Positions 7,613-38,298 of a stretch of 64,000 nt of DNA are shown here, piece by piece. Position numbers and translations under genes: made by a program. This DNA comes from Caldilineae bacterium (lineage in GTDB: Bacteria > Chloroflexota > Anaerolineae > DUEN01), in the NCBI GenBank assembly GCA_011176545.1, contig DUEN01000009.1:9510-73509 (forward strand), given 5' to 3'. How positions within the stretch are numbered: the first letter of the stretch is position 1; the number at the start of each line of letters is the position of its first letter. The notes under the pieces were generated by a model. That model was not told the origin of the DNA. It did not search any database and saw only the letters and a list, made by a program, of their open reading frames with translations.

Positions 7613-7621
7613 GAGGTGGGC

Positions 7622-13427: not shown

Positions 13428-13449
13428 GGATTAGAGATTGGAGATGAGG

Positions 13450-15060: not shown

Positions 15061-15087
15061 CTTCATTGAGCGGCTTGGAGGTGTTCT

Positions 15088-16796: not shown

Positions 16797-16815
16797 GCGG
16801 AGGCGGATCGAGAAG

Positions 16816-20842: not shown

Positions 20843-20849
20843 GGGCATC

Positions 20850-22133: not shown

Positions 22134-24301
22134 AACGTGTATCCTGGATTGTTCAGGTAAGCCTCATCTTATGGCTACTGGTCGGAGGGCTTAGTCCCTA
22201 CGGGACAGCCTGGGCTGAAGAGCCTCCCGACCAGGAGGAGTTCGTCCTGGCCGCGCCCCAGGGCTTCGGGGATCGCCACAACAGCTGGGCGTGGTCCATG
22301 CAGTGGTGGAATGGCCATCTCTATGTGGGGACCAATCGGGCCTTCCGCTGCGCGGAGTTCGCCTCGTTGAACCATATCGCCCCCAGCCTCTTTCCGTACC
22401 CGCCGGAGGACCCGGATATCGAGTGCACTCCCGATCCGACGGATCTGCCGTTGCAGGCTGAGATTTGGCGTTGGACTCCCGAGACGGATAGCTGGGAGAG
22501 GGTCTACCAGGCGCCCGCGGATGTGCAACTGCCCAACGGGAAGTGGGTAGCGCGGGATATCGGCTATCGGGGCATGACGGTCTTCCGCGAGCCGGATGGC
22601 ACCGAGGCGCTCTATGTGACCGGCGTCAGCCCTCAGTTCCTCGGCTTTGAAGGAGTGGAGGATCTGCCCGCCCGTATACTGCGATCGACCGATGGCGTGC
22701 ATTTCGAGCCGATCCCGCAGGATCCGGGGACGGCATTGGGGAATTTCCCCTTCGCCGCGTTCCGTAACCCCACCGGTTACAAGGGGAAGTTCTACGTCGT
22801 GGGAGGGATGGTACAGGGCAGCGGCGTGTTGCTGGAATCCGAGACTCCCGCCGAGGGCAATGATAGCTTCCGGGTCGTGAGCCCCTCCGATATGATCGTC
22901 TCCGCCGTGGCCGTCTACAACGGCTATCTGTACCTCGGGCTGCGTGATCTCCTCAGGGGCTACGCGGTCGCCAAGACGGACGCCTCCGGCGAGCCCCCGT
23001 ACACCTTCACCATCATTGTCGATCAGGGCGGTAACCTGGACCTCTGGCGGAATCCCGAGGTGCTGAGCATGCAGGTCTTCGACGGCCGCCTGTACGTTGG
23101 GGGGAACGGGCTCATCATCGGCCCGCTGGGCATCATGGGGCCAGCGGAGCTGATCCGTATCAACCCCGATGACTCATGGGATCTCATCGTCGGCTATCCG
23201 AGGCGCACGCCCGATGGATGGAAGTTCCCATTGAGCGGGCTGACCGCGGGCTTCGGGAACTTCCTCAACGGGCATATGTGGCGCATGGAAGTCTACGAAG
23301 GAGAGCTTTACGTGGGCACCTTCGACAGCAGTACGACCTTCAAGGATGACCCGGATGTGGCGCCCCTCGTTCAGTCGCTGATGGGCTTTGACCTTTACCG
23401 CACCGCCAACGGCGTCGATTTCATGCCCGTGAGCACGACCGGCTTCGGGGACCCGTTCAACTTCGGCGTCCGGACGATGGCGGCGACCCCGCATGGCCTG
23501 TTCATCGGCACGGCTAATCCCTACTATGGGCTGCAGATCTGGCTCAAGAGGCGTTACGGGATGTTCCTCCCCCTGCTGGTGACGTCCCCTGCCCCTTCGT
23601 TACGCTCCTACGCCCCACCTCAGGAGGAAACGGCTTGCAAGGTAGCATCAGGCGATCGAAGGGGAGCCAGCCTGTATGGTGAGCCCATTGGCGGGGCGGT
23701 CGTCCTCTCATGGCGTCCCTTGCGCGGTGCGGCGGCCTATCGCATCTGGCGATCCCAGGCTGGCCTAGCGACCTTTGCCCCGGAAGGCCCACGTGTCCAG
23801 GATGAGGATATGCTTACACTGGAAGTCCTCAAGGGGCAGCGGCCGTCTTTCACGGATATCGGGCAGACGTCAGGTTGCTATTATGTGGATCAGGGGGTAC
23901 ACTTATCTCAGAGATCGTACCTCTACCTGGTCGAAGGCATCGATGCCATGGGGCGGTCGGTCGGGTGGTCTCACTTGACGGCTGTCCCTGGCGCTGCTCC
24001 CTCAGTGACCTTTTCCTCGCTGATCATGAAAGCCACCGAGGCGCACGCCAAGGGATATCTATCCTCAGCGGGATTCGAAGAGCTCAGGCAGAGGCTAGAG
24101 GAGATCCGATGGCTGCTAAGGAATGCCCACGACGCAGCCGCTCGACAGCGACTAGCAGCCCTTCGGGAACGCCTCTCACAGCCTGGGGGGATCTTCCCGG
24201 CCTCATGGATGTCTGAGGATTTCCTCTATCTTGTGGACAAGTTAGAGAGGCGGGTGGATTTGATGGAGAAGGGGTTTATAGAGCCGATGGATCTGGAGTG
24301 A
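22130..24301 (+). CDS. Repeat (probably beta-propeller) protein, paralogue 2; signal peptide; Fn3-like plus helical C-terminal module
   Basis: ATGA overlap at 22130-22133. MKRVSWIVQVSLILWLLVGG signal, GFGDRHNSWAWSMQWWNGHLYVGTN, same repeat series as paralogue 1. Confidence 0.6.
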   Translation: MKRVSWIVQVSLILWLLVGGLSPYGTAWAEEPPDQEEFVLAAPQGFGDRHNSWAWSMQWWNGHLYVGTNRAFRCAEFASLNHIAPSLFPYPPEDPDIECTPDPTDLPLQAEIWRWTPETDSWERVYQAPADVQLPNGKWVARDIGYRGMTVFREPDGTEALYVTGVSPQFLGFEGVEDLPARILRSTDGVHFEPIPQDPGTALGNFPFAAFRNPTGYKGKFYVVGGMVQGSGVLLESETPAEGNDSFRVVSPSDMIVSAVAVYNGYLYLGLRDLLRGYAVAKTDASGEPPYTFTIIVDQGGNLDLWRNPEVLSMQVFDGRLYVGGNGLIIGPLGIMGPAELIRINPDDSWDLIVGYPRRTPDGWKFPLSGLTAGFGNFLNGHMWRMEVYEGELYVGTFDSSTTFKDDPDVAPLVQSLMGFDLYRTANGVDFMPVSTTGFGDPFNFGVRTMAATPHGLFIGTANPYYGLQIWLKRRYGMFLPLLVTSPAPSLRSYAPPQEETACKVASGDRRGASLYGEPIGGAVVLSWRPLRGAAAYRIWRSQAGLATFAPEGPRVQDEDMLTLEVLKGQRPSFTDIGQTSGCYYVDQGVHLSQRSYLYLVEGIDAMGRSVGWSHLTAVPGAAPSVTFSSLIMKATEAHAKGYLSSAGFEELRQRLEEIRWLLRNAHDAAARQRLAALRERLSQPGGIFPASWMSEDFLYLVDKLERRVDLMEKGFIEPMDLE

Positions 24302-24381
24302 CGGCTTTCGTTCCAAGACGCTTGGCTTTATGAGCAGGGTCGTTTTCTTTCGCCGCTCCCGTCTAGTGCAGAAGGAGGTTC

Positions 24382-26388
24382 ATGATGGAGAGCCGTGGTA
24401 TACACATAGGGGCACGTTATCGTAGGCTGGCTCCGATTGCTTTGGTCCTGATGATCGGCCTGCTGACTGCTTTGGCGGTACCCGGGCAGGCCTCGAGCCC
24501 GCAGGCGACGCCGATCCCGCTCACACAGGATGAGTTCTCCTCTATCGCGCCCCAGGGGTTCGGAGATCGTCACAATAGCTGGGCATGGTCGATGCAGTGG
24601 TGGAACGGTTACCTGTACGTAGGCACCAACCGGGCGTGGCATTGCGCCGAGGTCGCTGCCCTGACGAACATCTTCCCTGGGCTGGTGACATATCCACCGG
24701 ACGATCCGGACGTGGAATGTACCCCGGATCCTGAAGATCTCCCCTTACAGGCGGAGATCTGGCGCTGGTCGCCGGCGACTGGATGGGAGCGAGTGTATCA
24801 GGCGCCCGCGGATGTTCCGCTACAAAGCGGCAAGATGGTGGCCAGAGACGTCGGCTACCGGGGTATGACGGTCTTCCGCGAGCCGGATGGCACCGAGGCG
24901 CTTTACGTCACCGCCGTCAGCCCTCAGTTCATCTTCGAGGAGCTGACCGATGTGCCAGCCCGCATCCTGCGGTCAACCGATGGAGTGCACTTCGAGCCGA
25001 TCCCACAAGATCCGGGCACAGCTCTGGGGAACTTCCCCTTCAGCGTCTTCCGCAATCCTACCAGCTACAACGGACGGTTTTACGTCACGGGAGGCACGGT
25101 CCAGGGAAGTGGCGTGTTGCTGGAATCCGACGATCCGGCCGCGGGCAACGATAGCTTCCGCATCGTCTCGCCTCCAGGCATGATCGTCTCCGCGCTGAAG
25201 CCCTACAATGGGTACCTCTACGTGGGCGTGCGGGGGCTCTGGCGTGGCTACTCCATCGTTAAGACGGACGCCAGCGGAGATCCTCCCTATACCTTCACGC
25301 TGGTGGTGGAGAAGGGCGGATATCTCCGGCATGGTCGGAACCCCGAGGTGCTGAGCATGGAGATCTTCGACGGCTACCTGTACGTGGGTGGCAACGGTAT
25401 CTCCGTCGGCTCGATCGGCCCCGGCGCCGCTGCCGAGCTGATCCGCATCCATCCTGATGATTCCTGGGATCTCATCGTCGGCTATCCACGACTGACCCCT
25501 GATGGGTACAAATATCCGCTCAGCGGCCTGGAGGCTGGCTTCGGGAACCCGTTTAACGCCCATATGTGGCGAATGGCGGTGTATGATGGCGTGCTGTACG
25601 TGGGGACCTTTGACACCAGCACCACGCTCCGCAACGATCCTCAGCTCGGCGGATACGCGCAGCGATTCGCGGGGTTTGACCTGTATGCTTCTACGGACGG
25701 CATGCACTTCACGCCGGTGACCATGGACGGGTTTGGGGATGAGTTTAACTTCGGCGTACGAACCATGGCCTCCACGTCTGAGGGGCTATTCATAGGTACG
25801 GCTAATTACTACTATGGCCTGCAAATCTGGCGCGGCCAGAGCGGAGCTCCCCCAGCGTCAACCGAGACTCCAACCCCGACGCAGACCCCTGTCGCGGGAG
25901 AGGTCGCTGGGTGGGTCTTCCTTGACCTGAATGGGGATGGCCGTCGCGATCCGTATGCCGGGGAGACGACCGGTATCCCTGGTGTGACCCTGATCCTCCG
26001 TGATGCGGAGGGGAACGCCTTCACCACGCGAAGCACAAATCCCTCCGGGTGGTACGCATTCTCCAACGTGCCGCCCGGCATGTATACCGTGGAGGAGCAA
26101 CAGCCGCCTGGATACGTCAGCACCAGCCCGGATGTCGTCGCCATCGAGGTGCTTGCCGGAGGACAGCATATCGTGAACTTCGGCGAGATGCTCACCACCT
26201 CCACACCGACGGCGACGCCGCGCGATACGCCTACCGCGACGCCAACGCTGACACCAACGGCGACGCCAAGCAACACGCCCACCGCGACGCCGTCACCGAC
26301 GCCGACGGATACGCCCACACTTACCCCCACTGCCGGGCCCGTGGGAGAGGTCGGCTATGTGGTATACCTGCCGCTGCTGGCGAAGTGA
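24382..26388 (+). CDS. Repeat (probably beta-propeller) protein, paralogue 3; signal peptide; C-terminal SdrD-B/Cna-B-like domain, Thr/Pro-rich tail, terminal YLPLLAK
   Basis: GAAGGAGG RBS before ATG 24382. GFGDRHNSWAWSMQWWNGYLYVGTN. GWVFLDLNGDGRRDP...GWYAFSNVPPGMYTVEE. TPTATP repeats. Confidence 0.65.
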   Translation: MMESRGIHIGARYRRLAPIALVLMIGLLTALAVPGQASSPQATPIPLTQDEFSSIAPQGFGDRHNSWAWSMQWWNGYLYVGTNRAWHCAEVAALTNIFPGLVTYPPDDPDVECTPDPEDLPLQAEIWRWSPATGWERVYQAPADVPLQSGKMVARDVGYRGMTVFREPDGTEALYVTAVSPQFIFEELTDVPARILRSTDGVHFEPIPQDPGTALGNFPFSVFRNPTSYNGRFYVTGGTVQGSGVLLESDDPAAGNDSFRIVSPPGMIVSALKPYNGYLYVGVRGLWRGYSIVKTDASGDPPYTFTLVVEKGGYLRHGRNPEVLSMEIFDGYLYVGGNGISVGSIGPGAAAELIRIHPDDSWDLIVGYPRLTPDGYKYPLSGLEAGFGNPFNAHMWRMAVYDGVLYVGTFDTSTTLRNDPQLGGYAQRFAGFDLYASTDGMHFTPVTMDGFGDEFNFGVRTMASTSEGLFIGTANYYYGLQIWRGQSGAPPASTETPTPTQTPVAGEVAGWVFLDLNGDGRRDPYAGETTGIPGVTLILRDAEGNAFTTRSTNPSGWYAFSNVPPGMYTVEEQQPPGYVSTSPDVVAIEVLAGGQHIVNFGEMLTTSTPTATPRDTPTATPTLTPTATPSNTPTATPSPTPTDTPTLTPTAGPVGEVGYVVYLPLLAK

Positions 26389-26441
26389 TGGCATGCGTGG
26401 TCCTGCATCGCCCGGTGTCCTCATATACCAGAGGCGCCTCA

Positions 26442-26487
26442 GGGCAAGGTGCCGCCCGGGGATCAGGCAGCACCTTGCCCTTGTTTT
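26442..26487 (+). terminator. Intrinsic terminator ending the PKS/propeller operon
   Basis: 11-bp perfect stem GGGCAAGGTGC / GCACCTTGCCC (26442-26452 and 26470-26480) followed by TTGTTTT. Confidence 0.7.
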
Positions 26488-26512
26488 CCAACATCGTTAA
26501 CGAGGAATGCGT

Positions 26513-27847
26513 ATGACCGAACGCCCTAATATCATCGTGTTAGCTGTGGATACTTTACGCGCCGATCATCTCGGGTGTTATGGATACGCGCGCCCTACCA
26601 GCCCGAACATCGATGCCCTGGCTGAGGAGGGTGTCCTGGCGGAGAGGATGCTCTGCCCGGCCATCCCGACTTTCCCCTCCTTCACCACGTTCTACACCGC
26701 CCAGCATCCCCTGACCCATGGGATCATCGCCCATGGTGGGGACGCACGATTGGCTCGCGAGGCGCCTCATCTTGTCCCGCTCTTGTTGGAGGCGGGCTAT
26801 ACGACCTGCGCCGTGGACAACCTCATCCGGGAGAGGATATGGTTCGGCCGCGGCTACGAGTTTTGCATCGATCCAGGGCTACGACGCCCCCTGTCCATGA
26901 TGGTGACCTGCGAGGAACTGAACGCCCGGGCCATCTCCTGGTTGCGCCATTATCATCACGAGCCCTTTTTCCTTTTCATCCATTATTGGGACCCCCATAC
27001 GCCGTACACGCCTCCGGAGCAATATCGAGAGCTCTTCTACGAGGGGGGCAATCCGACCGATCCCGAGAACCGCTCGCTGGAGAAGATGTGGGAGCACCCC
27101 AATGGGATGATCGCCCGGGATAGCTGGCTGCGGACCCCCGAGGGCCTGATCACGGATGCCGACTACGTCGCTGCCCTCTACGACGCGGAGATCCGCTACC
27201 TGGACGATGGGATTGGCCAGATTATCACGGCCGTTGATGAGTTGGGGTTGACCGAGAACACGCTGATCATCCTCATGGCGGATCACGGGGAGAGCATGAC
27301 CGAGCATGGCATCTACTTCGATCACTTCGGGCTCTACGAATGCACGATCCATGTGCCCTTCATCGCGCGCTGGCCCGGCCGTCTCCCGGCTGGAGTGCGG
27401 TTGTCCCACATGTTACAGCTCAGCGACATCGCGCCGACGTTGCTGGAGGCCATTGGGCTGGTGATCCCAGGCGCTATGGAGGGCAAGAGCTTCTGGCCCT
27501 TGCTGACGGGCGCGTCGAACAGCGGGGGATGGGATCGGGTGATCAGCGTGGAGGCGACCTGGCAGGCCAAGTGGAGCCTGCGGACCGAGCGTTATAAGTT
27601 CATCCTCGACCGGGATCTGGGAGAGGACGGGAGTCCAGCTCACGAGCTTTATGATCTGGTCGCCGACCCGGGGGAGACGGTGAATCTGGTTGAAGCCCAA
27701 CCACAATTGGCCGCGGAGATGGAAGCCGAGCTGGAAAGCTGGATCGCGCGCCGGCTCCATGAGCTGGGCAAGCAGGAGGATCCATTGATCACGGAGGGCG
27801 CGATCCTAAAATCGACATGGCTGATGCATCAGGGAGTAAGCGCATGA
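26513..27847 (+). CDS. Sulfatase-fold (alkaline phosphatase superfamily) hydrolase/transferase, apparently Thr-type rather than formylglycine-type
   Basis: NIIVLAVDTLRADHLGCYGY, PTFPSFTTFYTAQHPLTHGI, MADHGESMTEHG. ATG 26513 lies 6 nt after GAGGA. Confidence 0.7.
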   Translation: MTERPNIIVLAVDTLRADHLGCYGYARPTSPNIDALAEEGVLAERMLCPAIPTFPSFTTFYTAQHPLTHGIIAHGGDARLAREAPHLVPLLLEAGYTTCAVDNLIRERIWFGRGYEFCIDPGLRRPLSMMVTCEELNARAISWLRHYHHEPFFLFIHYWDPHTPYTPPEQYRELFYEGGNPTDPENRSLEKMWEHPNGMIARDSWLRTPEGLITDADYVAALYDAEIRYLDDGIGQIITAVDELGLTENTLIILMADHGESMTEHGIYFDHFGLYECTIHVPFIARWPGRLPAGVRLSHMLQLSDIAPTLLEAIGLVIPGAMEGKSFWPLLTGASNSGGWDRVISVEATWQAKWSLRTERYKFILDRDLGEDGSPAHELYDLVADPGETVNLVEAQPQLAAEMEAELESWIARRLHELGKQEDPLITEGAILKSTWLMHQGVSA

Positions 27848-28236
27848 TGGACATGAACACAGCGCAGCAGTCCGATCTGGCTTCTCTCCTGCAGGAATAT
27901 CTTGCAGCCGTGGAAGCGCGGGATCTGGATCGGTGTCTCGACTTTTATACCGATGATGCCATCATCCACTTCGCGATGGGCGTCTACAAAGGCCGTCAGG
28001 CTATCACGGACTGGCATCGCGAGCGGTTCAACGCGGACTTGCGTGTGCTCCAACTCGACAGGGTCTCCTCTCAAGGCGACGAGCTGACCTGCGAGTTGGT
28101 GATCACCTCGAAACGCTTGAAGGCCTGGCGGATCAACACCCTACGGGGTAAGGGGACGTTTCGTTTCGAGAATGGGAAGATCAAGGAGGCTCGATTCTCG
28201 TTGGCGGGAGCGAATCCCCTGGAAGGCTGGCGATAG
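27844..28236 (+). CDS. SnoaL-like / NTF2-fold protein
   Basis: ATGA overlap at 27844-27847. YLAAVEARDLDRCLDFYTDDAIIHF. About 130 aa. Confidence 0.6.
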   Translation: MMDMNTAQQSDLASLLQEYLAAVEARDLDRCLDFYTDDAIIHFAMGVYKGRQAITDWHRERFNADLRVLQLDRVSSQGDELTCELVITSKRLKAWRINTLRGKGTFRFENGKIKEARFSLAGANPLEGWR

Positions 28237-28266
28237 TTGAAAGCGAACGGCGAGTTTGCTCATCCC

Positions 28267-29202
28267 ATGCGAGTGCTGTTGACGGGCGGGACCGGGTTAT
28301 TGGGATGGACGTTGTTGCAGAAGATGCCCCCGGAATGGGAGGTCGTCGTTGCCGTTCACCGGAACCACATCCCTCCCCTGGGCGCTCATATCCGTCCTAT
28401 CCTCATGGATCTGACCTCCCGCCAGCAGGTGCGGGAGGCCGTGCGATGGGCGCGGCCGGACGTGATCATCCACACCGCGTCCATTGGAGATCTCGACGCT
28501 AACGAGAGAAGGCAGGAGGAAGCCTGGCAGGTCAATGTGGAAGGCACGCGGTTCCTGCTAGAGGAGTCGCTGCCGTATGAGCCCCTCTTCGTCTTCTGTT
28601 CGACGATCTACGTCTTCGACGGCACCGAGCCGCCTTATGCTGAGGACGCGGTGCCCAACCCGATCAACTTCTACGCCAGGTGTAAGCTCGCCGGGGAGCG
28701 GCTCGCCCAGCGCTTGGCGCATCGGTTGCTCCTGTTACGCCCGAACACGACCTATGGCTGGCACCTGCCCGGCCAGCGTCCCAACTGGGTCACCTGGCTA
28801 CTTGCCAAACTGAGCGCAGGCCAGCCGGTCAAGGTCGTCGATGATGTGCATAACAACTATGTCTGGGTGGGCGATGTCGCCGATATCATCCTGGCTGGCA
28901 TCATCCAGGGGGTGACAGGGGTCTTTCACGTCGGTGGCCCGGAGTCGATGAGCCGATACGTGTTTTCGCTTCATATCGCTGACGTCTTCGGCTATCCCCG
29001 TGATCTGATCTCGCCGGTGTCCAGCGATTACTTTGCCAGCCTGGCCCCGCGGCCGAGAAGCGCCATATGCTCGATCGAGAAGATGGTGAGGGTTCTGGGG
29101 ATTCGGCCCCTGACCGTCCTCGAAGGGCTGGAGCTCATGAAGCGGCAGGAGGAGATGCGGGTCCGGCTGGGACGGGAGTATCATGAACTGGTCTCGGCCT
29201 GA
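28267..29202 (+). CDS. NAD(P)-dependent sugar-nucleotide reductase/epimerase (RmlD-like)
   Basis: MRVLLTGGTGLLG Rossmann motif, YARCK (YxxxK). Alternative TTG start at 28237. Confidence 0.7.
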   Translation: MRVLLTGGTGLLGWTLLQKMPPEWEVVVAVHRNHIPPLGAHIRPILMDLTSRQQVREAVRWARPDVIIHTASIGDLDANERRQEEAWQVNVEGTRFLLEESLPYEPLFVFCSTIYVFDGTEPPYAEDAVPNPINFYARCKLAGERLAQRLAHRLLLLRPNTTYGWHLPGQRPNWVTWLLAKLSAGQPVKVVDDVHNNYVWVGDVADIILAGIIQGVTGVFHVGGPESMSRYVFSLHIADVFGYPRDLISPVSSDYFASLAPRPRSAICSIEKMVRVLGIRPLTVLEGLELMKRQEEMRVRLGREYHELVSA

Positions 29203-30538
29203 GGATCGGCTCGCCGGCCTAAGCCGACGCCGATTTCTCCAGGGCGCGCTGGCGGGCCTGGCGAGCTCTCTGTTGCCCAGGCGGGTCATGACGGCCTCGC
29301 GATATCGGGTCGGCGTGGGCAAGGACGCGGATCCTTATGTCGCCACCTTGCGGGCCCTGGATGCCTGTAGCGAGTGGCCGCCGCCGGAACTCTTCGGCCG
29401 TCAGGTCATCATCAAGCCCAACCTCGTCGTGCAGGCTTCCCCGGAGACAGGGGCCGTCACAGATCCACAAGTCGTGCGGGCGATCGTGGATACGGCTCTG
29501 GCGGCCGGAGCGGCCGAGGTGTTGATCGCGGAGGGAGCGAAGGGGGGTGAGTATTTTTCGGCATGTGGCTATGATTTCTTCCAGAGTTATGATCCCGCGG
29601 GACGCGTTGCCCTGGTCAATCTGGATGAGCAGCCCGCTACGCTGGTGGCGGTACCCGATGGATTGGCCTATCGTCAGATCTACCTGCCAGAGCTGGTGCT
29701 GGATGCCGAGGCGTACCTGATCAGCGTGGCTAAGCTGAAATGCCACGTGGAGACGCTGGTCACGCTGTCGATGAAGAACCTGTTTGGGCTGCCACCCCTT
29801 CAAAGATACCAACATGCTGAGGCTACGGTGCAGAGCCGCTTCGCCATGCACGAGCGTGGCGTGAATCAGGCCATCGTGGATCTGAATCTGGCGCGTCCCA
29901 TCGATTTCGCCGTGGTGGATGGGATCTGGGGAATGGAAGGAGATGGCCCCTGGGAGGGAGATCCCGTGCGGATGGATATGGTCATCGCGGGGCGCAACGC
30001 GCTGGCGGTGGACCTGGTTTGCCTGCAGGCCATGGATGTCCCTCAAAGCCAGGTGCAGCATCTCGCGTACGCTGTAGAGAAGGGGTTGGGACCAGCCGAC
30101 GCGAGCTCGATTGACGTCTTGGGGGATCCCTTCTCTCCGAAGACTTTTCGCCTGCCCACGATCCCGCCGTTCATTGAGCGCCCGCGGGCCATCCCGTCCG
30201 TCTTCGCCCCGGACAGGGGCGAAGGGACTGCCATCGTTTATTGGGTGGACCGTCCCTGCTGGACTCGGGTAGAGATCATCCGCACCTCCGACCTCACATC
30301 TGATGTGACGGCCGTTCGCCTGTTACGCGGGTGGACCCTCCGCCTTGCCGGAAGGGACATCCTGATCTGGGATGGTCGCGATGACCAGGGCCAGCTCGTG
30401 CCAGAGGGCGAGTACACGATTCACATCGAGGCTACCGGGGGGGAGGTCTCGCGTAACCACGCTCACGCGACCGGTTGGGTCTCGGTGGTGGCGGAGGAGA
30501 TGAGCCAGCGGGCTTACCTGCCCGCCGTGCTCCGATGA
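29183..30538 (+). CDS. DUF362-domain protein with a twin-arginine signal and a C-terminal FlgD-Ig-like domain
   Basis: LSRRRFLQGALAGLASSLL, VIIKPNLV (DUF362 hallmark), ILIWDGRDDQGQLVPEGEYTIHIEA. Ends AYLPAVLR. Confidence 0.6.
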   Translation: MNWSRPEDRLAGLSRRRFLQGALAGLASSLLPRRVMTASRYRVGVGKDADPYVATLRALDACSEWPPPELFGRQVIIKPNLVVQASPETGAVTDPQVVRAIVDTALAAGAAEVLIAEGAKGGEYFSACGYDFFQSYDPAGRVALVNLDEQPATLVAVPDGLAYRQIYLPELVLDAEAYLISVAKLKCHVETLVTLSMKNLFGLPPLQRYQHAEATVQSRFAMHERGVNQAIVDLNLARPIDFAVVDGIWGMEGDGPWEGDPVRMDMVIAGRNALAVDLVCLQAMDVPQSQVQHLAYAVEKGLGPADASSIDVLGDPFSPKTFRLPTIPPFIERPRAIPSVFAPDRGEGTAIVYWVDRPCWTRVEIIRTSDLTSDVTAVRLLRGWTLRLAGRDILIWDGRDDQGQLVPEGEYTIHIEATGGEVSRNHAHATGWVSVVAEEMSQRAYLPAVLR

Positions 30539-31818
30539 GGGACATCAGGCATAAAGAGGAGCTGATGCATATCCGAGATCCGAGGGCGATTGGGGAAGCG
30601 CGACGCGCTATGTTTCCACGATGGGTATACATTCTACAGGTGAGCGTCGTCCTTATCGTGATGGTGGGAGCCTGCGCGCCCCGGAAACGCCCGGTGAAGA
30701 CACCCACCCCAGCGGCCCTGGAGGTTCGGACACCTCCGCCGGTAGAGGAGGTCCCTGTGGGAGAGGGTGCTTGCGCTGTGGAAGAGATCCGCTATTTTGG
30801 GCTGGGCGGGGAGAACGACTGGTCACCCGATGGAGAGCTTTTGGTCTTTCAGCGCCGGGATGCCTCGGGCATCTATCAACTTTACATCGCGCGCCCTGAC
30901 GGCTCCGACGAGCGCTGTATCACCTGTGAGCCGGTGCCTGGCGGTCCCTCCCAGGATCGACACAAGGGATTCCCCGCCTGGCATCCGAGCGGGAAGTACA
31001 TCGTGGCTCAGGTGGAAATGGAAAGCCATCCGCCATTGAAGCGGCTGACCGAGCCAGGACGCGGGGCGTGGAATAACCTCTGGGTGCTGACCCCGGACGG
31101 CAAACAGTGGTTTCAACTCACCGATTATCCCTCCCTGGCGCCCTCTGGGGTGTTGAACCCTCGCTTCTCTCACGACGGCAGGAAGCTGTTCTGGGCTGAG
31201 AAGATCGGTCGGGCGACCAAGGAGAGCCCGTTCGCCCAGTGGCAACTCGTCATAGCGGACTTCGTCGTGGAGGCGGGACAGCCGCGGTTGGAGAACGTCC
31301 AGGCGTTTCGCCCGGGTGATGGGCGTTTCTTCGAGGCCCATGGCTTCACCGCGGACGATTCGAAGGTCCTTTTCTCTTCGGATATCGGCCTATCCACCCC
31401 CTTCGCCATGGATATCTTCACTTATGATCTGGCTACTGGAGAGCTGCGAAATCTCACGAACTCTCCCGACGAATGGGAGGAACATGCCGCCTATTCGCCC
31501 AACAACCATAAGATCGCTTTCATGTCGAGTCAATGCTGTCCCGGATATGACCCAACCCAGTTTAACGTGAGGAATTTACAGATCTTGCAGACGGAAGAGT
31601 ATATAATGGACGCTGATGGGAAGAATTGGGTACAGTTGACCCACTTCAACACACCGGGATTCCCCGAATATACGCCTGAGCACAGCGTGGCAGCCGTGGC
31701 TAGCTGGCATCCCGATGGGACACAGTTGGCCGTGGCCCAATTCCTGGTGGGCGAAAGCTACGACAGCGTGGAGGCCCATCGGCTCTGGATCGTGAAATTC
31801 AAGGGACGGTGTGGTTGA
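30535..31818 (+). CDS. PD40/TolB-like beta-propeller repeat protein (exported or lipoprotein)
   Basis: ATGA overlap at 30535-30538. Hydrophobic VLIVMVGAC. Repeats SPDGELLVF, HPSGKYIV, SHDGRKLFW, TADDSKVLF, SPNNHKIAF, HPDGTQLAV. Confidence 0.7.
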   Translation: MRDIRHKEELMHIRDPRAIGEARRAMFPRWVYILQVSVVLIVMVGACAPRKRPVKTPTPAALEVRTPPPVEEVPVGEGACAVEEIRYFGLGGENDWSPDGELLVFQRRDASGIYQLYIARPDGSDERCITCEPVPGGPSQDRHKGFPAWHPSGKYIVAQVEMESHPPLKRLTEPGRGAWNNLWVLTPDGKQWFQLTDYPSLAPSGVLNPRFSHDGRKLFWAEKIGRATKESPFAQWQLVIADFVVEAGQPRLENVQAFRPGDGRFFEAHGFTADDSKVLFSSDIGLSTPFAMDIFTYDLATGELRNLTNSPDEWEEHAAYSPNNHKIAFMSSQCCPGYDPTQFNVRNLQILQTEEYIMDADGKNWVQLTHFNTPGFPEYTPEHSVAAVASWHPDGTQLAVAQFLVGESYDSVEAHRLWIVKFKGRCG

Positions 31819-31823
31819 TCACG

Positions 31824-33308
31824 ATGGCATGGCAAGGAGAAATCGCCAGGAGGTCCATATCCTCGCGGGGGATGACGTCGACGAGTGCCGGCCGCGTGGC
31901 TCACCATGCCGGGCTGCCTCTGAAGACGAAGGTCCTCTATGGCCTCGGCGAGGCGAGCAACGCCATTAAAGCATTCACCTTCGGCCTGTTCCTGCTGTTC
32001 TTTTACACCACCGTCCTGGGCCTGCCCGGGACCTGGGTAGGCATCGCCACCTCCATCGGCCTGATCTGGGACGCGGTCATCGATCCGTTCATCGGGCATC
32101 TCTCCGATCGCATCCATCCTCGGCTGGGACGCCGCCACGCGCTCATGTTGGTAGGGGCCATCGGCATGGGCGTGGCTTTCTTCGCCATCTTCCGCCCGCC
32201 TCGCGGCCTCTCCAGCACGGCGCTCTTCGCCTGGCTGGTGGCGACGAGTCTGCTCTTGCGCACGACCAACTCTATATTCATGGTACCTTACCACGCCCTG
32301 GGCGCGGAGCTGAGCCGAGACTACCATGAGCGCACCGCGGTGACCAGCGCACGGGCGGCCTTCGCCCTCGTGGGCACGCTGGTGGCGGCAGGGCTCTCCT
32401 TCTCTGTCTTCTTCCCCGATCGCACGCCCAGCGTGGATCCCAAGCTCGATCCCTCCGGTTATGCTACGATGGGCCTGGCCTTTGGACTGGCTATGACGGC
32501 GTTGGGCCTGGTGGCCACTCTGGGAACGTTGTCGCATCGCGCATCTGAGGAGCCGGAGCCCCGCGCCCGACAGGAGGAGCGCCTCGGCTTCGTTCGAGGG
32601 TTGCTCATCTGTCTCCACAACCCGGCGTTCCTGTTGCTGACCCTCTCCGCCTCGCTATTCTTCCTGGCCAGCGTGATCAACGCGACCGTGGCGATCCACT
32701 ATCTCGTCTATTACGCGGGCATCACGAAGAGCAATGCTCTCAGCCTCTTCCAACTCTCTTTCTATGTCGGCGCACTGGCGGGCGTGGCCCTTTGGCTACG
32801 CGTCGCCCGTCGTTGGGAGAAGCAACATCTCTATTTCGTGGCCACCCTCGCGGTCGCCGCGTTGATGGTCGCCGCCTATAGGCTGGTGGGGGAGGGGCGC
32901 CTGTTCGGCACCGGGAACCTGTCGGCCCTGTTGATTGGGCATGGGACTGCGGGCCTCTTTGCCAGTGCCCTCTGGGTGTTGCCGCCGTCGATGATCGCCG
33001 ATGTGACGGATTGGGACGCGCTGATCACCGGACAGCGCCGCGAGGGGGTCTTCTTCGGCATTTATTCCTTCAGCCAGCAGGTGGCGGCCAGCCTGGCCAT
33101 CCTCATCACTGGCGTATTGGTGGATCGCTTCGCGGGCCTGGTGCCTGGCCAGGCCACACAGTCTCCCCTGACGATCGAGCGCCTGGCGATGCTCTTCAGC
33201 TTATTGCCGGCCATGATCGTGTTGGTGGCCGCCCTCCTGATCCTCGGCTATCGCCTCACCAGGGGACGTCTCCAGCAGATCCAGGCGGAGCTTGGGGGGT
33301 GGGTATGA
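31824..33308 (+). CDS. MFS transporter, glycoside-pentoside-hexuronide (GPH/MFS_2)-like
   Basis: LYGLGEASNAIK, WDAVIDPFIGHLSDRIHPRLGRRHA. Multiple hydrophobic helices. Start uncertain (31809-31872). Confidence 0.75.
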   Translation: MAWQGEIARRSISSRGMTSTSAGRVAHHAGLPLKTKVLYGLGEASNAIKAFTFGLFLLFFYTTVLGLPGTWVGIATSIGLIWDAVIDPFIGHLSDRIHPRLGRRHALMLVGAIGMGVAFFAIFRPPRGLSSTALFAWLVATSLLLRTTNSIFMVPYHALGAELSRDYHERTAVTSARAAFALVGTLVAAGLSFSVFFPDRTPSVDPKLDPSGYATMGLAFGLAMTALGLVATLGTLSHRASEEPEPRARQEERLGFVRGLLICLHNPAFLLLTLSASLFFLASVINATVAIHYLVYYAGITKSNALSLFQLSFYVGALAGVALWLRVARRWEKQHLYFVATLAVAALMVAAYRLVGEGRLFGTGNLSALLIGHGTAGLFASALWVLPPSMIADVTDWDALITGQRREGVFFGIYSFSQQVAASLAILITGVLVDRFAGLVPGQATQSPLTIERLAMLFSLLPAMIVLVAALLILGYRLTRGRLQQIQAELGGWV

Positions 33309-33336
33309 GTTCGACATGGGAGGTGAGGAAGCCGCG

Positions 33337-35169
33337 ATGAGGGAGAAGCGCCTCGTCATCTATGGGATGATCCCTTTCCTCCTCGCATATGCGCTCTTGC
33401 TTCTGAACGGGAAGCTGATCATGGCCTCTCCGCATCCGCACGCGAAGATGGATCTGGTCTTGCCTCCTACGCCTCAGCCGTTGCCACCCACGGGCGATTG
33501 CACGCTGGATAACATCTTCTATGGCGCCGTGCCGCCGGGCGGCGAACAGGGTGACGTGCTGGTCTTCGTGCATGGGCTCTCCGGCCTGGCTGAGGATTGG
33601 TGGGCCGAGAACACGACGGCGGGGCTGAATGATATGTACATCCTGGCGTACAACGCGGGCTATCGGACGGCCTTCGTCAACCTGAACGTCGCCGCGGCGA
33701 CCCCGCCGGAATGCCATGTGAAACGCCGGCCCGCCAATGATATGATGGGGAACGGGAAGGTACTCAGCCAGCAGCTCGACGCGATCACGCAACACTACGG
33801 AGTCAGCCAGGTTGATATCATCGCCCATTCCAAAGGAGGCGTCGACGCGCAGGCCGCGACCGTCTGGTGGGGCGCGTGGCCTAAGGTTCGCAACGTGTTC
33901 ACGTTAGGGACGCCTCATCAGGGCTCGCTGCTGGCCGACCTCCTCTGGAGCCCCGAGGGATTCTGGGTGAGCATCCTCCTGGGACAGCGAGATCAGGCGA
34001 CGTTCAGCATGCGGACCGGCTCGATGCAGTTATTCCGATCGCTGACGGATCCCGCCACGGTGGATGACAATATACATTACTATTCGGGCGCCGGGAATCA
34101 CTGGAACACGCCGGGGACGATATATGAGATCACGGGGGAATGGCTTCAGAACCATCCTGAGGGCGGCGACAACGATGGCGCGGTCACCGTGGCGAGCACG
34201 TCCCTGGCCGGGGCGGAGACCCTCTTCCTGGAGCCGTGGAACCATGCCGAAGTATACCTGGGGAGGAACGCCTTCCCCTATATCCTCCAGGTCCTAGAGG
34301 GACCTCCTCCAAGCTTTCACGCCTACCTGCCCTTGTTGTACCGCGAAGGAGGGGCTGCCGCAAGCAAGCCCGAAGGGACCGCTCCTGACGGTGAGAGGGC
34401 TTCGGGCCTCGCGCTTCATCGGGCGGGGCCGATGTCTGGCGTGCTGACCTCCAGCTATGTCCTCCGTGGAGGCCGGCTGGTCGGTTCCATCTGGGAGACG
34501 TTGCCCATCGAGGATCAGGTGCGAACGGCCAGGTTCACCCTGATCACCACGGCGGAGGAAGTTACAGCTACCCTGATAGATCCTCAGGGGAACGAGCTCC
34601 CGATGCGGTGGGTGGGCCGCGGGGATCAACAAGGGCTCTTCGCGTCGGCGTCCTGGCTGACCAGGAGGATGGATCGGCCGGCGCCAGGGGAGTGGAGCGT
34701 ACAGATGGATGGCCCGTCGGGAGCCGGATATCTCTTGATCGTCACGCTGGATAGCCCATTGCGTGTGGGGCTGAGGGGCCTTCCCCGCCAGCCCGTGGCG
34801 CCAGGGCAGGCGGTGCGTTTGCAGGCCTGGGCCCATGATCCGCTGAGCATCACGCGCATCGAGCACGTCCGGGTGCGATGGGAAGCTCCTCCCTGGCTCA
34901 CCTCCCAGGGATGCGCGATGGACGGTGATATGACGTGCAACGTCGCCACTGCGAACACGATGTCCTTTGAAGAGGCGACGGCGGTAGGTGAAGAGATCCT
35001 GAGCCGCGCCTTCGTCGAAGAAGGGGTATATGGGATCTCCGTTAGGGTGAGGGGACATACCGGGGCCGGATGGTCCTTTGAGCGATCCTTCGTTTATTCG
35101 TTCGCCGTCGCGCCCGCGCGGCGAGACCGCGATGTGTGGAAAGCGCAGGCCCTATGGCCTGGGAGGTGA
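33337..35169 (+). CDS. Secreted lipase/esterase (alpha/beta fold) with a C-terminal beta-rich extension
   Basis: GGAGGTGAGG RBS. Signal-like MIPFLLAYALLLL. VLVFVHGLSGL, IIAHSKGGVD (A-H-S-x-G-G lipase elbow), GTPHQGS. Confidence 0.7.
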   Translation: MREKRLVIYGMIPFLLAYALLLLNGKLIMASPHPHAKMDLVLPPTPQPLPPTGDCTLDNIFYGAVPPGGEQGDVLVFVHGLSGLAEDWWAENTTAGLNDMYILAYNAGYRTAFVNLNVAAATPPECHVKRRPANDMMGNGKVLSQQLDAITQHYGVSQVDIIAHSKGGVDAQAATVWWGAWPKVRNVFTLGTPHQGSLLADLLWSPEGFWVSILLGQRDQATFSMRTGSMQLFRSLTDPATVDDNIHYYSGAGNHWNTPGTIYEITGEWLQNHPEGGDNDGAVTVASTSLAGAETLFLEPWNHAEVYLGRNAFPYILQVLEGPPPSFHAYLPLLYREGGAAASKPEGTAPDGERASGLALHRAGPMSGVLTSSYVLRGGRLVGSIWETLPIEDQVRTARFTLITTAEEVTATLIDPQGNELPMRWVGRGDQQGLFASASWLTRRMDRPAPGEWSVQMDGPSGAGYLLIVTLDSPLRVGLRGLPRQPVAPGQAVRLQAWAHDPLSITRIEHVRVRWEAPPWLTSQGCAMDGDMTCNVATANTMSFEEATAVGEEILSRAFVEEGVYGISVRVRGHTGAGWSFERSFVYSFAVAPARRDRDVWKAQALWPGR

Positions 35170-35174
35170 CTTTC

Positions 35175-36470
35175 ATGTGGATAATCTCTTCTCCGTTGGG
35201 ACGGCGGGTCAGCGTGTTCTGTCTCGCCACAGCGCTCCTGTTGGGGCTTGTGGCCCCCGCTGGCCTGGCCCAAGCGGCCCCGCCAATGGAGGCGACCGCC
35301 CTGACCAGGGATTTTGAGCCCATCATCGTTCGAGGGGGTCAGGCTCCCCTATTATCCGGCGCCCCGCTGGATCAGATCTTCGTCTACCGGGAGGTCGGAG
35401 GCATCTGGGAACAGATCCCGTTTCAGATCGACGAGCTCACGGCGTCAGGCACCTACACGGCTACCGAGGATGGGGTCTGGGATGCCAATGACGAGGTTGT
35501 CTTCATGGCCGGCGATCTGGGAGATCGAGCGACGACCTCCATCGTTGCTGCTCTGCCGATTACCGGGCTGTGGTACGAGGTGGAAGTCAGAGATCCCACC
35601 AACCCGTCGCAAAGGGGATGGGCTTACATCGTCCGTTCGACGGTGCTGACGGATAGTGTCGCCACAGATTACGTGGATTACCTCGCCCCGAATCGACGGG
35701 TGCGGGCGCGGAGCTACGAGGTCGGTTGGGCCGCGTCTCACGCGGGGCTGGACTATATGACCCTGTTCGGCGGTGATGATATCCTCGATCGCACGAAGCT
35801 GCGCGTGAAGTACCGCATATGGCCGCTGCCCCAGCGATGGGTGTTGACGGAGGACAACCTGCCGGCCCCCGAGCTTCGGCTGGTCAAGGACGGCCCCGTC
35901 CGCGTGATCGTCCAGCGCGGCGGGGCGACGACGCTGGCTTATGCATCGCTGTTGCAGACGACGAGCCTGATTGACCTCTCCGGGCTGCCCGGGAACGTCA
36001 TCATCGATGAGATCCGTGTCTCCTCCGATCTGACCGGGACCATCACGAACGCCACTTTTTACAATGAGAACGTCCCGGCTGGGGTGACCATCGACGGCAC
36101 GCCGGATGCGGTGCCGACTACGCCGTTCACCCATCCCTGGCGTCAGATCAGCCTGGACGATGGCACGATCGTTCAGGTCGTCAGCCTGGGGGAGACGGGG
36201 GGCACGCTGAGCCACTACTACAAGGATGACGCGACGGTGGATCCCGATGACACGGGCGACCATCAATCGTTTGGCGATTCCGGCGTATTGGTGGTCGGCC
36301 CAACGGAGCGGATCTTCTCCGTCAAGAGCGTCCAGTACATCCTGCCGGGCCGGCAGAGTAACCGAGGTGCCGAGTTCTATGGGATATTCCAAAGTCCGCT
36401 CCAGGTCACCGTTCGCGCTCAGGCGCGGTACCATCTCTTCGCCCCATCCGTGCTCAGGGGGCAGGGATAA
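35175..36470 (+). CDS. Secreted protein of unknown function
   Basis: GGGAGGTG RBS. Signal peptide VFCLATALLLGLVAPAGLAQA. I recognised no family motif. Coding strand chosen over antisense ORF 35445-36434. Confidence 0.55.
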   Translation: MWIISSPLGRRVSVFCLATALLLGLVAPAGLAQAAPPMEATALTRDFEPIIVRGGQAPLLSGAPLDQIFVYREVGGIWEQIPFQIDELTASGTYTATEDGVWDANDEVVFMAGDLGDRATTSIVAALPITGLWYEVEVRDPTNPSQRGWAYIVRSTVLTDSVATDYVDYLAPNRRVRARSYEVGWAASHAGLDYMTLFGGDDILDRTKLRVKYRIWPLPQRWVLTEDNLPAPELRLVKDGPVRVIVQRGGATTLAYASLLQTTSLIDLSGLPGNVIIDEIRVSSDLTGTITNATFYNENVPAGVTIDGTPDAVPTTPFTHPWRQISLDDGTIVQVVSLGETGGTLSHYYKDDATVDPDDTGDHQSFGDSGVLVVGPTERIFSVKSVQYILPGRQSNRGAEFYGIFQSPLQVTVRAQARYHLFAPSVLRGQG

Positions 36471-36644
36471 GGCGTTCGCTCATTAGGAACACGCGATGTG
36501 GTAGGGGCGAGGCCATAGGCTTCCTCTTCCGGGTGTGGCCGCCTTTGGAGGGGGAAAGATGGCAGGAGAGGGCCTCACCCGTGCGGTTAAGAGTGGGCAC
36601 AGCGTCGCCGTGTCTCTACGAAAGTCGAGTCTATGTCGCGTGTA

Positions 36645-36653
36645 TGCTAATAT
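36645..36653 (+). promoter_or_regulatory. Candidate extended -10 promoter element (TGcTAATAT) for the efflux operon
   Basis: TGCTAATAT at 36645-36653, about 65 nt upstream of ATG 36716. No good -35 seen. Confidence 0.35.
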
Positions 36654-36662
36654 GGAAGTGAA

Positions 36663-36678
36663 GCGCAGCATGCTGCGC
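36663..36678. repeat. 16-bp perfect palindrome GCGCAGCATGCTGCGC just downstream of the candidate -10
   Basis: Read directly from the sequence. Candidate operator or 5'-UTR hairpin. Confidence 0.5.
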
Positions 36679-36715
36679 CCCTACCATGGGCATGCGTTCC
36701 GTTAAGGGGTAAGAC

Positions 36716-38275: not shown

Positions 38276-38298
38276 GCTCGTCGAGAGGGAGATGCGGC

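What the first reader, a model, noticed from the sequence alone, without database searches (positions are those of the whole stretch)
23561..36458. Recurrent [YF]-L-P-[LA]-[LV]-[LVY] motif at C-termini or domain boundaries of five exported proteins: candidate sorting or processing signal
Seen in sequence:
- MFLPLLVT in paralogue 2 (23561-23584), at the propeller/C-terminal-module boundary.
- VVYLPLLAK-stop in paralogue 3 (26359-26385).
- AYLPAVLR-stop in the DUF362 protein (30512-30535).
- AYLPLLYR in the lipase (34321-34344), at the catalytic/C-terminal-domain boundary.
- A weaker YHLFAPSVLRGQG-stop in the unknown secreted protein (36429-36458).

All five proteins have N-terminal Sec or Tat signals. 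I saw no such motif in the cytoplasmic proteins of the window.

A short hydrophobic Pro-containing motif placed terminally or just before a linker recalls sortase- or exosortase-type signals. However, it has no following transmembrane helix or basic tail, and no sortase-like gene is in the window. That it acts as a sorting or cleavage signal is inference.
Basis: partly seen in the sequence, partly recalled or inferred. Interest (0 to 1): 0.7.

Follow-up and report, generated by a model that had tools for sequence, protein, structure and literature searches.

The report
YLP-box C-terminal sorting motif, Chloroflexota
The recurring Y-L-P-L-V-x-R tail is real and specific to exported proteins of Chloroflexota bacteria, but NCBI's protein-family library already lists it as the "YLP-box putative sorting motif", and how it works is still unknown.

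Summary
The strict pattern occurs four times in all six reading frames of the window. The fifth, weaker site (LFAPSVLR) is a degenerate copy at the position where most of its homologues carry a canonical box.

The motif is not new. NCBIfam holds two very short models for it, NF050076 sort_motif_YLP and NF053834 ultrashort_CTERM, both described as "YLP-box putative sorting motif".

What I found:
- The consensus is [VI]-Y-L-P-L-[VI]-x-[RK]-stop.
- It is concentrated in Chloroflexota.
- It is strongly biased to C-termini.
- It is tied to N-terminal signal peptides, both across neighbouring genes and within one family.
- It sits on dozens of unrelated extracellular domain families.
- In one family the same C-terminal slot holds a type IX secretion (T9SS) sorting domain or a membrane anchor instead.
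- AlphaFold2 leaves the box unpacked, both as a tail and inside a linker.

Conserved internal and tandem copies show that a free C-terminus is not required.

No sorting enzyme was found in the window or as a recurrent neighbour. "Candidate sorting signal" is a well-supported reading, but it is already catalogued. The mechanism (cleavage or docking) remains inference.

The parts
26362..26385 (+). Terminal YLP box VYLPLLAK of propeller paralogue 3. The stop codon is at 26386-26388. The box follows an SdrD_B domain and a Pro/Thr-rich linker.
   Evidence: PSSM 20.3 bits, rank 1 of 20,302 positions. It fits the consensus of 115 tails.
30512..30535 (+). Terminal YLP box AYLPAVLR of the Tat-exported DUF362/FlgD_ig protein. 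The stop codon is at 30536-30538.
   Evidence: PSSM 15.4 bits, rank 2. 39 of 120 homologues carry a tail appended after the last Ig strand; 81 show no box in their last 30 residues, most ending at or just after that strand.
34321..34344 (+). Internal YLP box AYLPLLYR in the linker between the lipase catalytic domain and its C-terminal beta-sandwich.
   Evidence: The box is conserved at this boundary in about 40 of 107 homologues. AlphaFold2 gives pLDDT below 50 for residues 328-344, with both flanking domains mostly above 90. PSSM 13.3 bits, rank 3.
23561..23584 (+). Internal, weak YLP box MFLPLLVT in propeller paralogue 2. It lies about 10 residues after the propeller ends and before the FN3/helical module.
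   Evidence: A box sits 7-13 residues (one at 20) after the propeller end in 39 of 55 scorable homologues, 24 of them internal. PSSM 9.7 bits, rank 6.
36435..36458 (+). Degenerate YLP box LFAPSVLR, followed by GQG and the stop, in the unknown secreted protein.
   Evidence: PSSM 10.8 bits, rank 5. At least 65 of 150 family representatives carry a canonical box at this C-terminal slot.
22130..24301 (+). Carrier: exported propeller paralogue 2. Signal peptide begins MKRVSWIVQVSLILWLL.
24382..26388 (+). Carrier: exported propeller paralogue 3 (propeller, SdrD_B domain, Pro/Thr linker, box).
29183..30538 (+). Carrier: DUF362 plus FlgD_ig-like protein with a twin-arginine leader.
33337..35169 (+). 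Carrier: PGAP1-like alpha/beta-hydrolase (lipase) with a C-terminal beta-sandwich.
35175..36470 (+). Carrier: secreted protein with no Pfam or NCBIfam match. Its family shows a choice-of-anchor pattern.
18740..20842 (+). Internal control: propeller paralogue 1, with no signal peptide and no YLP box.

Best explanation
These are instances of the YLP box. It is an ultrashort motif, specific to one bacterial lineage, carried by proteins that Chloroflexota (Anaerolineae, Chloroflexia and relatives) export through Sec or Tat. The consensus is [VI]-Y-L-P-L-[VI]-x-[RK]-COOH.

Proposed mechanism: after export the box stays unfolded, either as a free tail or inside a flexible linker. A factor of the Chloroflexota envelope reads it in trans as a linear peptide, and the protein is then sorted to or retained at the cell surface. 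In that sense it works like the signals read by sortase, PorU or exosortase.

The part recognised is the hydrophobic core, not the terminal carboxylate. The box also works internally and in tandem. The K/R residue is needed mainly when the chain ends there.

Shown here:
- restriction to the lineage;
- bias to C-termini;
- coupling to export;
- promiscuity across carrier families;
- interchange with other sorting signals;
- lack of packing in structure models.

Inferred only:
- that a dedicated factor exists;
- that the outcome is surface retention.

I cannot tell whether the factor is an endopeptidase or transpeptidase that cleaves at the box, or a receptor that only binds it. I put the two at about even odds, leaning slightly towards recognition without obligatory removal of what follows.
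For: Identity:
- NCBIfam NF050076 and NF053834 ('YLP-box putative sorting motif') hit 22 and 12 of 51 carriers found in the genome scan.
- Tails of the window proteins' homologues pass the curated cut-offs: P0017 scores 17.1 and 16.6 bits, and the tandem tail of P0005 scores 19.0 and 21.1 bits.

Lineage:
- A genome-collection scan for YLPLxx[KRQHNS]-stop returned 120 loci, 54 of them Chloroflexota.
- 51 of those 54 lie at the end of a long ORF, against 10 of 66 in other phyla.

Position:
- Unseeded hits in the same Chloroflexota loci are 9 of 12 within 4 codons of the stop and 11 of 12 within 13.
- In 115 non-redundant tails, P is invariant, L occurs in 105, Y/F in 110, and K/R at +6 in 94.

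Export coupling:
- 28 of 39 tail-bearing complete ORFs have an N-terminal hydrophobic leader and no other TM segment, against 40 of 221 neighbouring ORFs.
- In the propeller family, 62 of 81 signal-bearing members have the box. Among signal-less members, 25 lack it and 3 carry it, and at least two of those three look N-terminally truncated or borderline.

Modularity:
- 63 Pfam families occur among 51 carriers.
- They include NCBIfam choice-of-anchor B, D, Q and T domains.
- The DUF362 family occurs with and without the appended tail.
- Bacillaceae lipase homologues lack the box.

Interchange:
- In the family of the window's unknown protein, the C-terminal slot holds a YLP box in at least 65 of 150 representatives.
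- In others it holds a T9SS type A sorting domain (6 pass the TIGR04183 cut-off) or a TM helix with a basic tail.

Linear motif:
- AlphaFold2 gives pLDDT below 50 for the P0017 tail, next to a propeller with pLDDT above 95.
- It gives pLDDT below 50 for the lipase linker that contains the box.
Against: - No experiment or paper on the motif was found.
- No sortase-, exosortase-, rhombosortase- or PorU-like gene is in the window.
- No non-carrier gene recurs next to carriers in 54 loci.
- The window's own five peptides and its full-length proteins give no NCBIfam YLP-box hit at E<=10, so formal membership rests on consensus and homology.
- Unlike every characterised C-terminal sorting signal, there is no TM segment to hold the substrate at the membrane.
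- Conserved internal boxes followed by folded domains of about 230-275 residues are unusual for a classical cleaved C-terminal signal.
Confidence: 0.6

Rival explanations
1. Cleaved sorting signal in the strict sense. A dedicated endopeptidase or transpeptidase cuts in or next to the box and attaches the protein covalently to a wall, sheath or lipid acceptor. It could be sortase-like, PorU/C25-like or CPBP-like. Anything downstream of the box is discarded.
For: - The box sits in the same slot as T9SS sorting domains and TM-type anchors, all of which are enzyme-processed systems.
- The L-P core with a beta-branched residue two positions later recalls LPXT (my own knowledge).
- An enzyme would serve many substrates in catalytic amounts, which fits 63 carrier families and the absence of a linked gene.
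- PorU-like C25 peptidases exist in these organisms and carry YLP boxes themselves.
Against: - Internal boxes are conserved upstream of functional domains. Those domains stay fused in box-less and signal-less paralogues and in Bacillaceae homologues.
- Tandem boxes occur.
- There is no TM retention segment.
- The distance from the core to the C-terminus varies from +2 to +9, so there is no CAAX-like ruler.
Confidence: 0.28
2. Non-covalent docking motif. The exposed hydrophobic core binds a groove on an abundant envelope protein, such as an S-layer, sheath or wall-associated receptor. The carrier is tethered without cleavage.
For: - The box works at internal positions in disordered linkers.
- Tandem copies occur (P0003 and P0005), as does an internal plus terminal pair (L109). 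This suggests avidity.
- K/R at +6 is present in 82% of terminal boxes but only 28% of internal ones. That fits the idea that it merely offsets the terminal carboxylate.
- The box is unpacked in AlphaFold2 models.
Against: - Known non-covalent anchors of single-membrane bacteria (SLH, LysM, GW, WxL) are folded domains, not 8-residue peptides (my own knowledge).
- No receptor candidate was identified.
- A stoichiometric receptor for so many cargos would have to be very abundant.
Confidence: 0.3
3. Intramolecular structural element: a closing or edge beta-strand, or a hinge, belonging to the carrier's own fold.
For: In the propeller family the box sits 7-13 residues (one at 20) after the last blade, where a closing strand could lie.
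Against: - AlphaFold2 does not pack it.
- The same 8-residue motif follows 63 unrelated folds, sometimes after long Pro/Thr linkers.
- Many close homologues end without it.
Confidence: 0.03
4. Direct membrane anchor, or a C-terminal degradation or quality-control tag. The hydrophobic tail would insert into the bilayer, or would mark non-exported copies for proteolysis.
For: The motif is a short hydrophobic stretch ending in a basic residue. It is coupled to exported proteins.
Against: - Six or seven hydrophobic residues interrupted by Pro give only about -1 kcal/mol on the Wimley-White interfacial scale (my own estimate). That is too weak to anchor proteins of 50-170 kDa.
- A degradation tag would not be expected at conserved internal positions or to be interchangeable with T9SS sorting domains.
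Confidence: 0.06
5. Chance or compositional coincidence.
For: The bare hexamer VYLPL[VIM] also occurs in conserved TM segments of Rnf/Nqr subunits and ABC permeases in many phyla. One chance PSSM hit lies in the window's sulfatase.
Against: - Shuffling statistics.
- Taxon and position contrasts.
- Conservation at homologous positions in four families.
Confidence: 0.01

Closest known systems
NCBIfam NF050076 (sort_motif_YLP) and NF053834 (ultrashort_CTERM), 'YLP-box putative sorting motif-containing protein'
   Same: - Same core, Y-L-P-L-[VI]-x-[RK], and same terminal placement on exported Chloroflexota proteins.
- Homologues of three window families and 22 of 51 independent carriers hit the models.
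   Different: - The window's own five copies are divergent (L or A at variable positions; F-A-P and M-F-L-P variants). They fall below the tool's reporting threshold.
- Two are internal.
- The library gives only a name. I found no enzyme, mechanism or publication.
Sortase LPXTG-type cell-wall sorting signals
   Same: - Located at the C-terminus of Sec-exported surface proteins.
- An L-P dipeptide at the core.
- A basic residue at the end.
- Many unrelated cargo families, with no required gene linkage.
   Different: - No Thr-Gly.
- No hydrophobic span of about 20 residues.
- Only one basic residue.
- Functional internal and tandem copies.
- No sortase in the window.
Type IX secretion C-terminal domain (TIGR04183) processed by PorU
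   Same: - It occupies the same C-terminal slot in homologues of the window's unknown protein.
- The cargo types overlap: C25, M14 and M28 peptidases, beta-helix, FG-GAP and PKD domains.
- PorU-like C25 peptidases carry the local signal themselves.
   Different: - The T9SS sorting domain is a folded beta-sandwich of about 70-100 residues used to cross an outer membrane. The YLP box is 8 unfolded residues.
- The window proteins gave no NCBIfam match to any T9SS model.
PEP-CTERM/exosortase, PGF-CTERM/archaeosortase, GlyGly-CTERM/rhombosortase and MYXO-CTERM/myxosortase signals
   Same: - Lineage-specific C-terminal tags on diverse exported proteins, discovered by comparative genomics.
- They are attached to 'choice-of-anchor' domains.
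   Different: All of these are tripartite: motif, TM helix and basic cluster. The YLP box has no TM helix.

Membership tests
NCBIfam YLP-box (NF050076 / NF053834) | HMM score at or above the curated cut-off (15 and 10 bits) | tested here: not met
   The window's five peptides, full-length paralogue 3 and the full-length DUF362 protein give no hit at E<=10; full-length paralogues 1 and 2, the lipase and the unknown protein give none at E<=1. Homologue tails pass: P0017 at 17.1/16.6 bits, P0005 at 19.0/21.1 bits, L109 at 16.5/14.3 bits. The tool detects only 22 of 51 canonical tails, so its sensitivity is low.
NCBIfam YLP-box (NF050076 / NF053834) | Sequence consensus [VI]-Y-L-P-L-[VI]-x-[RK] | tested here: met
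   An independent PSSM built from 145 homologue tails gives VYLPLLAK 20.3 bits, AYLPAVLR 15.4 and AYLPLLYR 13.3. The training 10th percentile is 12.9. LFAPSVLR (10.8) and MFLPLLVT (9.7) fall in the weak tail of the distribution.
NCBIfam YLP-box (NF050076 / NF053834) | Located at or near the extreme C-terminus | tested here: met
   This is met for three of the five sites: the stop comes directly after the box in two and after GQG in one. Two sites are internal, at positions where homologues also carry internal boxes. NF050076 itself scores an internal box in L109.
NCBIfam YLP-box (NF050076 / NF053834) | Carrier is an exported protein (N-terminal signal peptide) | tested here: met
   All five carriers have Sec or Tat leaders on reading. 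A hydropathy heuristic gives odds ratio 11.5 across loci and 27 within the propeller family. No SignalP-type predictor was available.
NCBIfam YLP-box (NF050076 / NF053834) | Chloroflexota host | tested here: met
   The closest named homologues are MAGs of Anaerolineae, Caldilineales and Chloroflexota. 54 of 120 genome-scan loci are Chloroflexota.
Sortase LPXTG-type signal | LPXTG-like pentapeptide followed by a hydrophobic span of about 20 residues and a basic tail | tested here: not met
   Only 1-3 residues follow the core before the stop, and there is no Thr-Gly.
Sortase LPXTG-type signal | Sortase (Pfam PF04203) encoded in the genome | not testable with these tools
   None is in the window. 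The whole genome was not available.
Exosortase / archaeosortase / rhombosortase signals | Tripartite signal (motif, TM helix, Arg/Lys cluster) and a cognate membrane enzyme | tested here: not met
   There is no TM helix after the box. No NCBIfam match to a tripartite C-terminal sorting-signal model appears on the window proteins.
T9SS type A sorting domain (TIGR04183) | Folded C-terminal beta-sandwich of about 70 residues that matches the model | tested here: not met
   The window proteins give no TIGR04183 hit. Six homologues of the unknown protein carry it in place of the YLP box.
CAAX-like C-terminal ruler signals | Fixed distance of the motif from the C-terminus | tested here: not met
   The distance from core to end varies from +2 to +9, and internal copies are conserved.

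The most novel reading that the evidence does not exclude
The YLP box may not be a cleaved C-terminal signal at all. It may be a position-independent, reusable docking peptide of 8 residues that works at the end of a protein, inside linkers and in tandem. It would tether Sec- and Tat-exported proteins to a Chloroflexota-specific envelope receptor. That would be a class of surface-retention signal without precedent among sortase-type systems. A sub-variant is that the PorU-like C25 peptidases, which themselves carry YLP boxes, are the cognate processing enzymes.
Probability: 0.3. Interest if true: 0.65.

Novelty: already known. Interest (0 to 1): 0.35.

Why it matters
Chloroflexota are a large phylum, abundant in the environment, and their cell-envelope architecture is debated. 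How they keep secreted enzymes and adhesins at the surface is not known.

A phylum-wide 8-residue tag on dozens of extracellular protein families marks the cargo of an unidentified sorting or retention pathway. It can be used now to predict the surface proteome of uncultured Anaerolineae and Chloroflexia.

The motif itself is already catalogued. This analysis adds four things:
- quantitative support for export coupling;
- evidence that it can be interchanged with T9SS and TM anchors;
- conserved internal and tandem copies;
- evidence that it is an unpacked linear peptide.

Together these narrow the possible mechanisms.

Tried and rejected
- DNA-level repeat: rejected, because each copy uses different codons.
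- Closing strand of the propeller, or another packed element: rejected by AlphaFold2. The tail and the linker have pLDDT below 50 next to domains with pLDDT above 93.
- Linked sorting enzyme: all-against-all clustering of 331 ORFs from 54 Chloroflexota loci plus the window found no recurrent non-carrier neighbour. Pfam annotation of the window's larger ORFs found no sortase-like gene. It did find HlyD plus MacB/FtsX downstream and an S49 peptidase 14 kb away, neither of which recurs.
- Literature: six searches by peptide words, model names and topic found nothing relevant. The peptide words returned frog temporins; the term 'YLP motif' returned insect-cuticle and human-gene papers. A full-text term search of the myxosortase preprint found no mention of Chloroflexota.
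- Metagenome scan for VYLPL[VIM] without a stop codon, intended as an unbiased position test: it was swamped by conserved TM segments of Rnf/Nqr and ABC permeases. Only the x[KR] subset was informative: 9 terminal, 2 internal in linkers, 1 membrane protein.
- CAAX-like fixed-distance processing: rejected, because the distance varies.
- Direct bilayer anchor: rejected on hydrophobicity grounds (my own estimate).
- First NCBIfam scan at E<=1 missed the YLP-box models. They appeared only when 51 carriers were scanned at E<=10.
- Foldseek of the propeller model shows only generic Kelch/WD40-type propellers, which says nothing about the motif.

Full report
**Observation**

The pattern [YFW]LP[LAVIM][LVIMA][LVIYMFA] occurs exactly four times in the six-frame translation of the 64-kb window. 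All four hits are in real plus-strand genes: 23564, 26365, 30515 and 34324. Two are one residue before the stop.

The copies use different codons, so the conservation is at the protein level. Shuffling residues within the 37 window proteins gives 0.47 hits on average (P about 0.002 for four or more). It gives 0.005 hits within the last ten residues, against two observed.

**What the carriers are**

Pfam and NCBIfam identify them as follows:
- two paralogues of an unannotated beta-propeller family, one of which also has an SdrD_B domain and a Pro/Thr linker;
- a Tat-exported DUF362/FlgD_ig protein;
- a PGAP1-like lipase with a C-terminal beta-sandwich;
- a protein with no family match.

A third propeller paralogue (18740-20842) has neither a signal peptide nor the motif.

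**The motif elsewhere: four homologous families**

- Propeller family. A [YF]-[LM]-P-x-[VIL] box lies 7-13 residues (one at 20) after the last blade in 39 of 55 scorable homologues. In 15 it is the C-terminus (for example IYLPLVIRK-stop). In 24 it is followed by a Gly/Ser/Ala-rich linker and further domains. Two members end in tandem boxes, for example LYLPLLLRAPERLGLIRIYLPLIQR-stop.
- DUF362 family. 39 of 120 homologues have a spacer of a few residues plus a box appended after the last Ig strand. The other 81 show no box in their last 30 residues; most of them end at or just after that strand.
- Lipase family. The box is conserved in the interdomain linker in about 40 of 107 homologues. P0318 ends at a canonical box, and P0294 and P0295 end in divergent box-like tails. 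Bacillaceae homologues have both domains and no box.
- Family of the fifth protein. At least 65 of 150 representatives at the 50% identity level end in a canonical box. This makes the window's LFAPSVLRGQG a degenerate copy at the homologous slot.

**Lineage and position**

I scanned one genome per GTDB species for TAC-CTG-CCN-CTG-NTN-NNN-MRN-TRA. Of these, 54 are Chloroflexota: Anaerolineae, Thermoflexales, Caldilineaceae, Chloroflexaceae, Roseiflexus, Oscillochloris and Chloroploca. In 51 of the 54 the match ends a long ORF, against 10 of 66 in other phyla.

I then re-scanned the same loci for Y[LI]P[LVIA][LVIM] without requiring a stop and excluding the seed matches:
- Chloroflexota (366 kb): 12 hits in long ORFs, 9 within four codons of the stop and 11 within 13.
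- Other phyla (493 kb): two hits, neither near a stop.

The consensus of 115 non-redundant tails is [VI]-Y-L-P-L-[VI]-x-[RK]-stop. Internal boxes keep the core, but only 28% have K/R at +6, and Gly/Ser/Ala follow.

**Export coupling**

In the scanned loci, 28 of 39 complete tail-bearing ORFs have an N-terminal hydrophobic leader and no other TM segment. Among neighbouring ORFs the figure is 40 of 221 (odds ratio 11.5, p=7e-11). Several of the exceptions are Tat leaders or ORFs with over-extended starts.

Within the propeller family, 62 of 81 signal-bearing members have the box. Among signal-less members, 25 lack it and 3 carry it; at least two of those three look N-terminally truncated or borderline (odds ratio 27, p=8e-10).

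**Modularity and interchange**

The 51 carriers span 63 Pfam families. These include Beta_helix, NosD, LVIVD, FG-GAP, PD40, Kelch, Chlam_PMP, DUF11, PKD and peptidases C25, M14 and M28. They also include NCBIfam choice-of-anchor B, D, Q and T domains.

In the family of the fifth protein, some members have a T9SS type A sorting domain in the same C-terminal slot (six pass the TIGR04183 cut-off). Others have a TM helix with a basic tail. Unrelated sorting signals occupying one slot is the pattern expected of a sorting signal.

**Structure**

- AlphaFold2 models the propeller of P0017 with pLDDT above 95, but the tail 486-494 (IYLPLVIRK) is below 50.
- In the window lipase both domains are mostly above 90, and the linker 328-364, which contains the box at 330-336, is largely below 50.

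The box is therefore an exposed linear peptide and not part of a fold.

**Comparison with what is known**

Scanning the 51 carriers against NCBIfam at a permissive threshold brought up two very short curated models. They are NF050076 sort_motif_YLP (11 positions) and NF053834 ultrashort_CTERM (10 positions). Both are described as 'YLP-box putative sorting motif-containing protein'.
- Homologue tails pass the curated cut-offs, including both copies of a tandem tail.
- An internal box in a Thermoflexales PorU-like C25 peptidase also passes.
- The window's own copies are not reported at E<=10. The tool finds only 22 of 51 canonical tails.
- An independent PSSM ranks the five window sites 1, 2, 3, 5 and 6 of 20,302 positions.

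The motif is therefore already catalogued, and the window holds divergent members. I found no publication on it.

**Mechanism**

The motif fails the defining features of several known systems:
- sortase, exosortase and rhombosortase signals, because it has no TM span;
- T9SS sorting domains, because it is not a folded domain;
- CAAX-like rulers, because its distance to the C-terminus varies and internal copies exist.

No candidate enzyme is in the window, and none recurs next to carriers.

I conclude that it works like a sorting or retention signal, read in trans as a linear peptide after export. Enzymatic processing and non-covalent docking are about equally likely. Three observations lean towards recognition that does not need a free end or removal of downstream domains:
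- the conserved internal boxes;
- the tandem boxes;
- the K/R residue being dispensable in internal copies.

**Caveats**

- Signal peptides were judged by a hydropathy heuristic and by eye.
- Gene calls in the fetched loci are crude longest-ORF calls.
- 51 of the 115 tails in the logo were seeded with a pattern that fixes the stop position.

Noticed in passing
window 164-18240 and 20808-39585; L241 1-15700: The motif-bearing genes sit in a larger cluster. It contains two giant PUFA-synthase or type-I-PKS-like ORFs, a phosphodiesterase, a hydrolase, an SDR, a methyltransferase, an EryCIII-like glycosyltransferase, a sulfatase, a SnoaL-like protein, an RmlD-like protein, an MFS_2 transporter and HlyD plus MacB/FtsX. 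The core (propeller, glycosyltransferase, epimerase, lipase, DUF362, MFS_2, second lipase) is syntenic in a Caldilineales MAG, and lipase, DUF362 and propeller homologues share one 36-kb contig in an Anaerolineae MAG. This suggests a conserved envelope or glycolipid pathway of unknown function.
   Followed up: partly
window 53123-62104 (+): A VWA-domain protein is followed by two large Tubulin_2 (PF13809) proteins in a row.
   Followed up: no
window 43845-45386 (-): A Baseplate_J-like protein lies alone between YceG and alanyl-tRNA synthetase.
   Followed up: no
window 18740-20842 (+): Propeller paralogue 1 has no signal peptide and no YLP box. Across the family, 25 of the 28 signal-less members lack the box. 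This implies cytoplasmic and exported versions of the same propeller plus FN3/helical architecture.
   Followed up: yes
L109 2473-5382 (-); L210 (- strand ORF, 686 aa): PorU-like C25 peptidases of Thermoflexales-type organisms (NF033707, 228 bits, below the cut-off of 420) carry YLP boxes. L109 has one internal (505-515) and one terminal. L210 ends TFLPVTLRGY. This parallels PorU, which carries its own T9SS sorting domain. It is a speculative enzyme candidate.
   Followed up: partly
L241 16970-18925 (+): A Caldilineales SdrD_B-domain protein in the syntenic cluster ends in a TM helix plus an Arg-rich tail (GGGYLLAAIAALVLLLRGRRARSLAR). The window's SdrD_B-containing paralogue 3 ends in a YLP box instead.
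   Followed up: no
L121-L240 (metagenome loci): The hexamer VYLPL[VIM] is also a conserved TM-segment signature of Rnf/Nqr-type subunits (LGVYLPLITTNC) and of ABC permeases in many phyla. Bare regex searches for the YLP box therefore need the x[KR]/terminal context or a taxon filter.
   Followed up: yes
window 27347-27370 (+), inside the sulfatase gene 26507-27847: IHVPFIAR in the sulfatase catalytic domain scores 11.0 bits on the YLP-box PSSM. That is as high as the two weakest real sites, which shows the chance floor for weak variants.
   Followed up: yes
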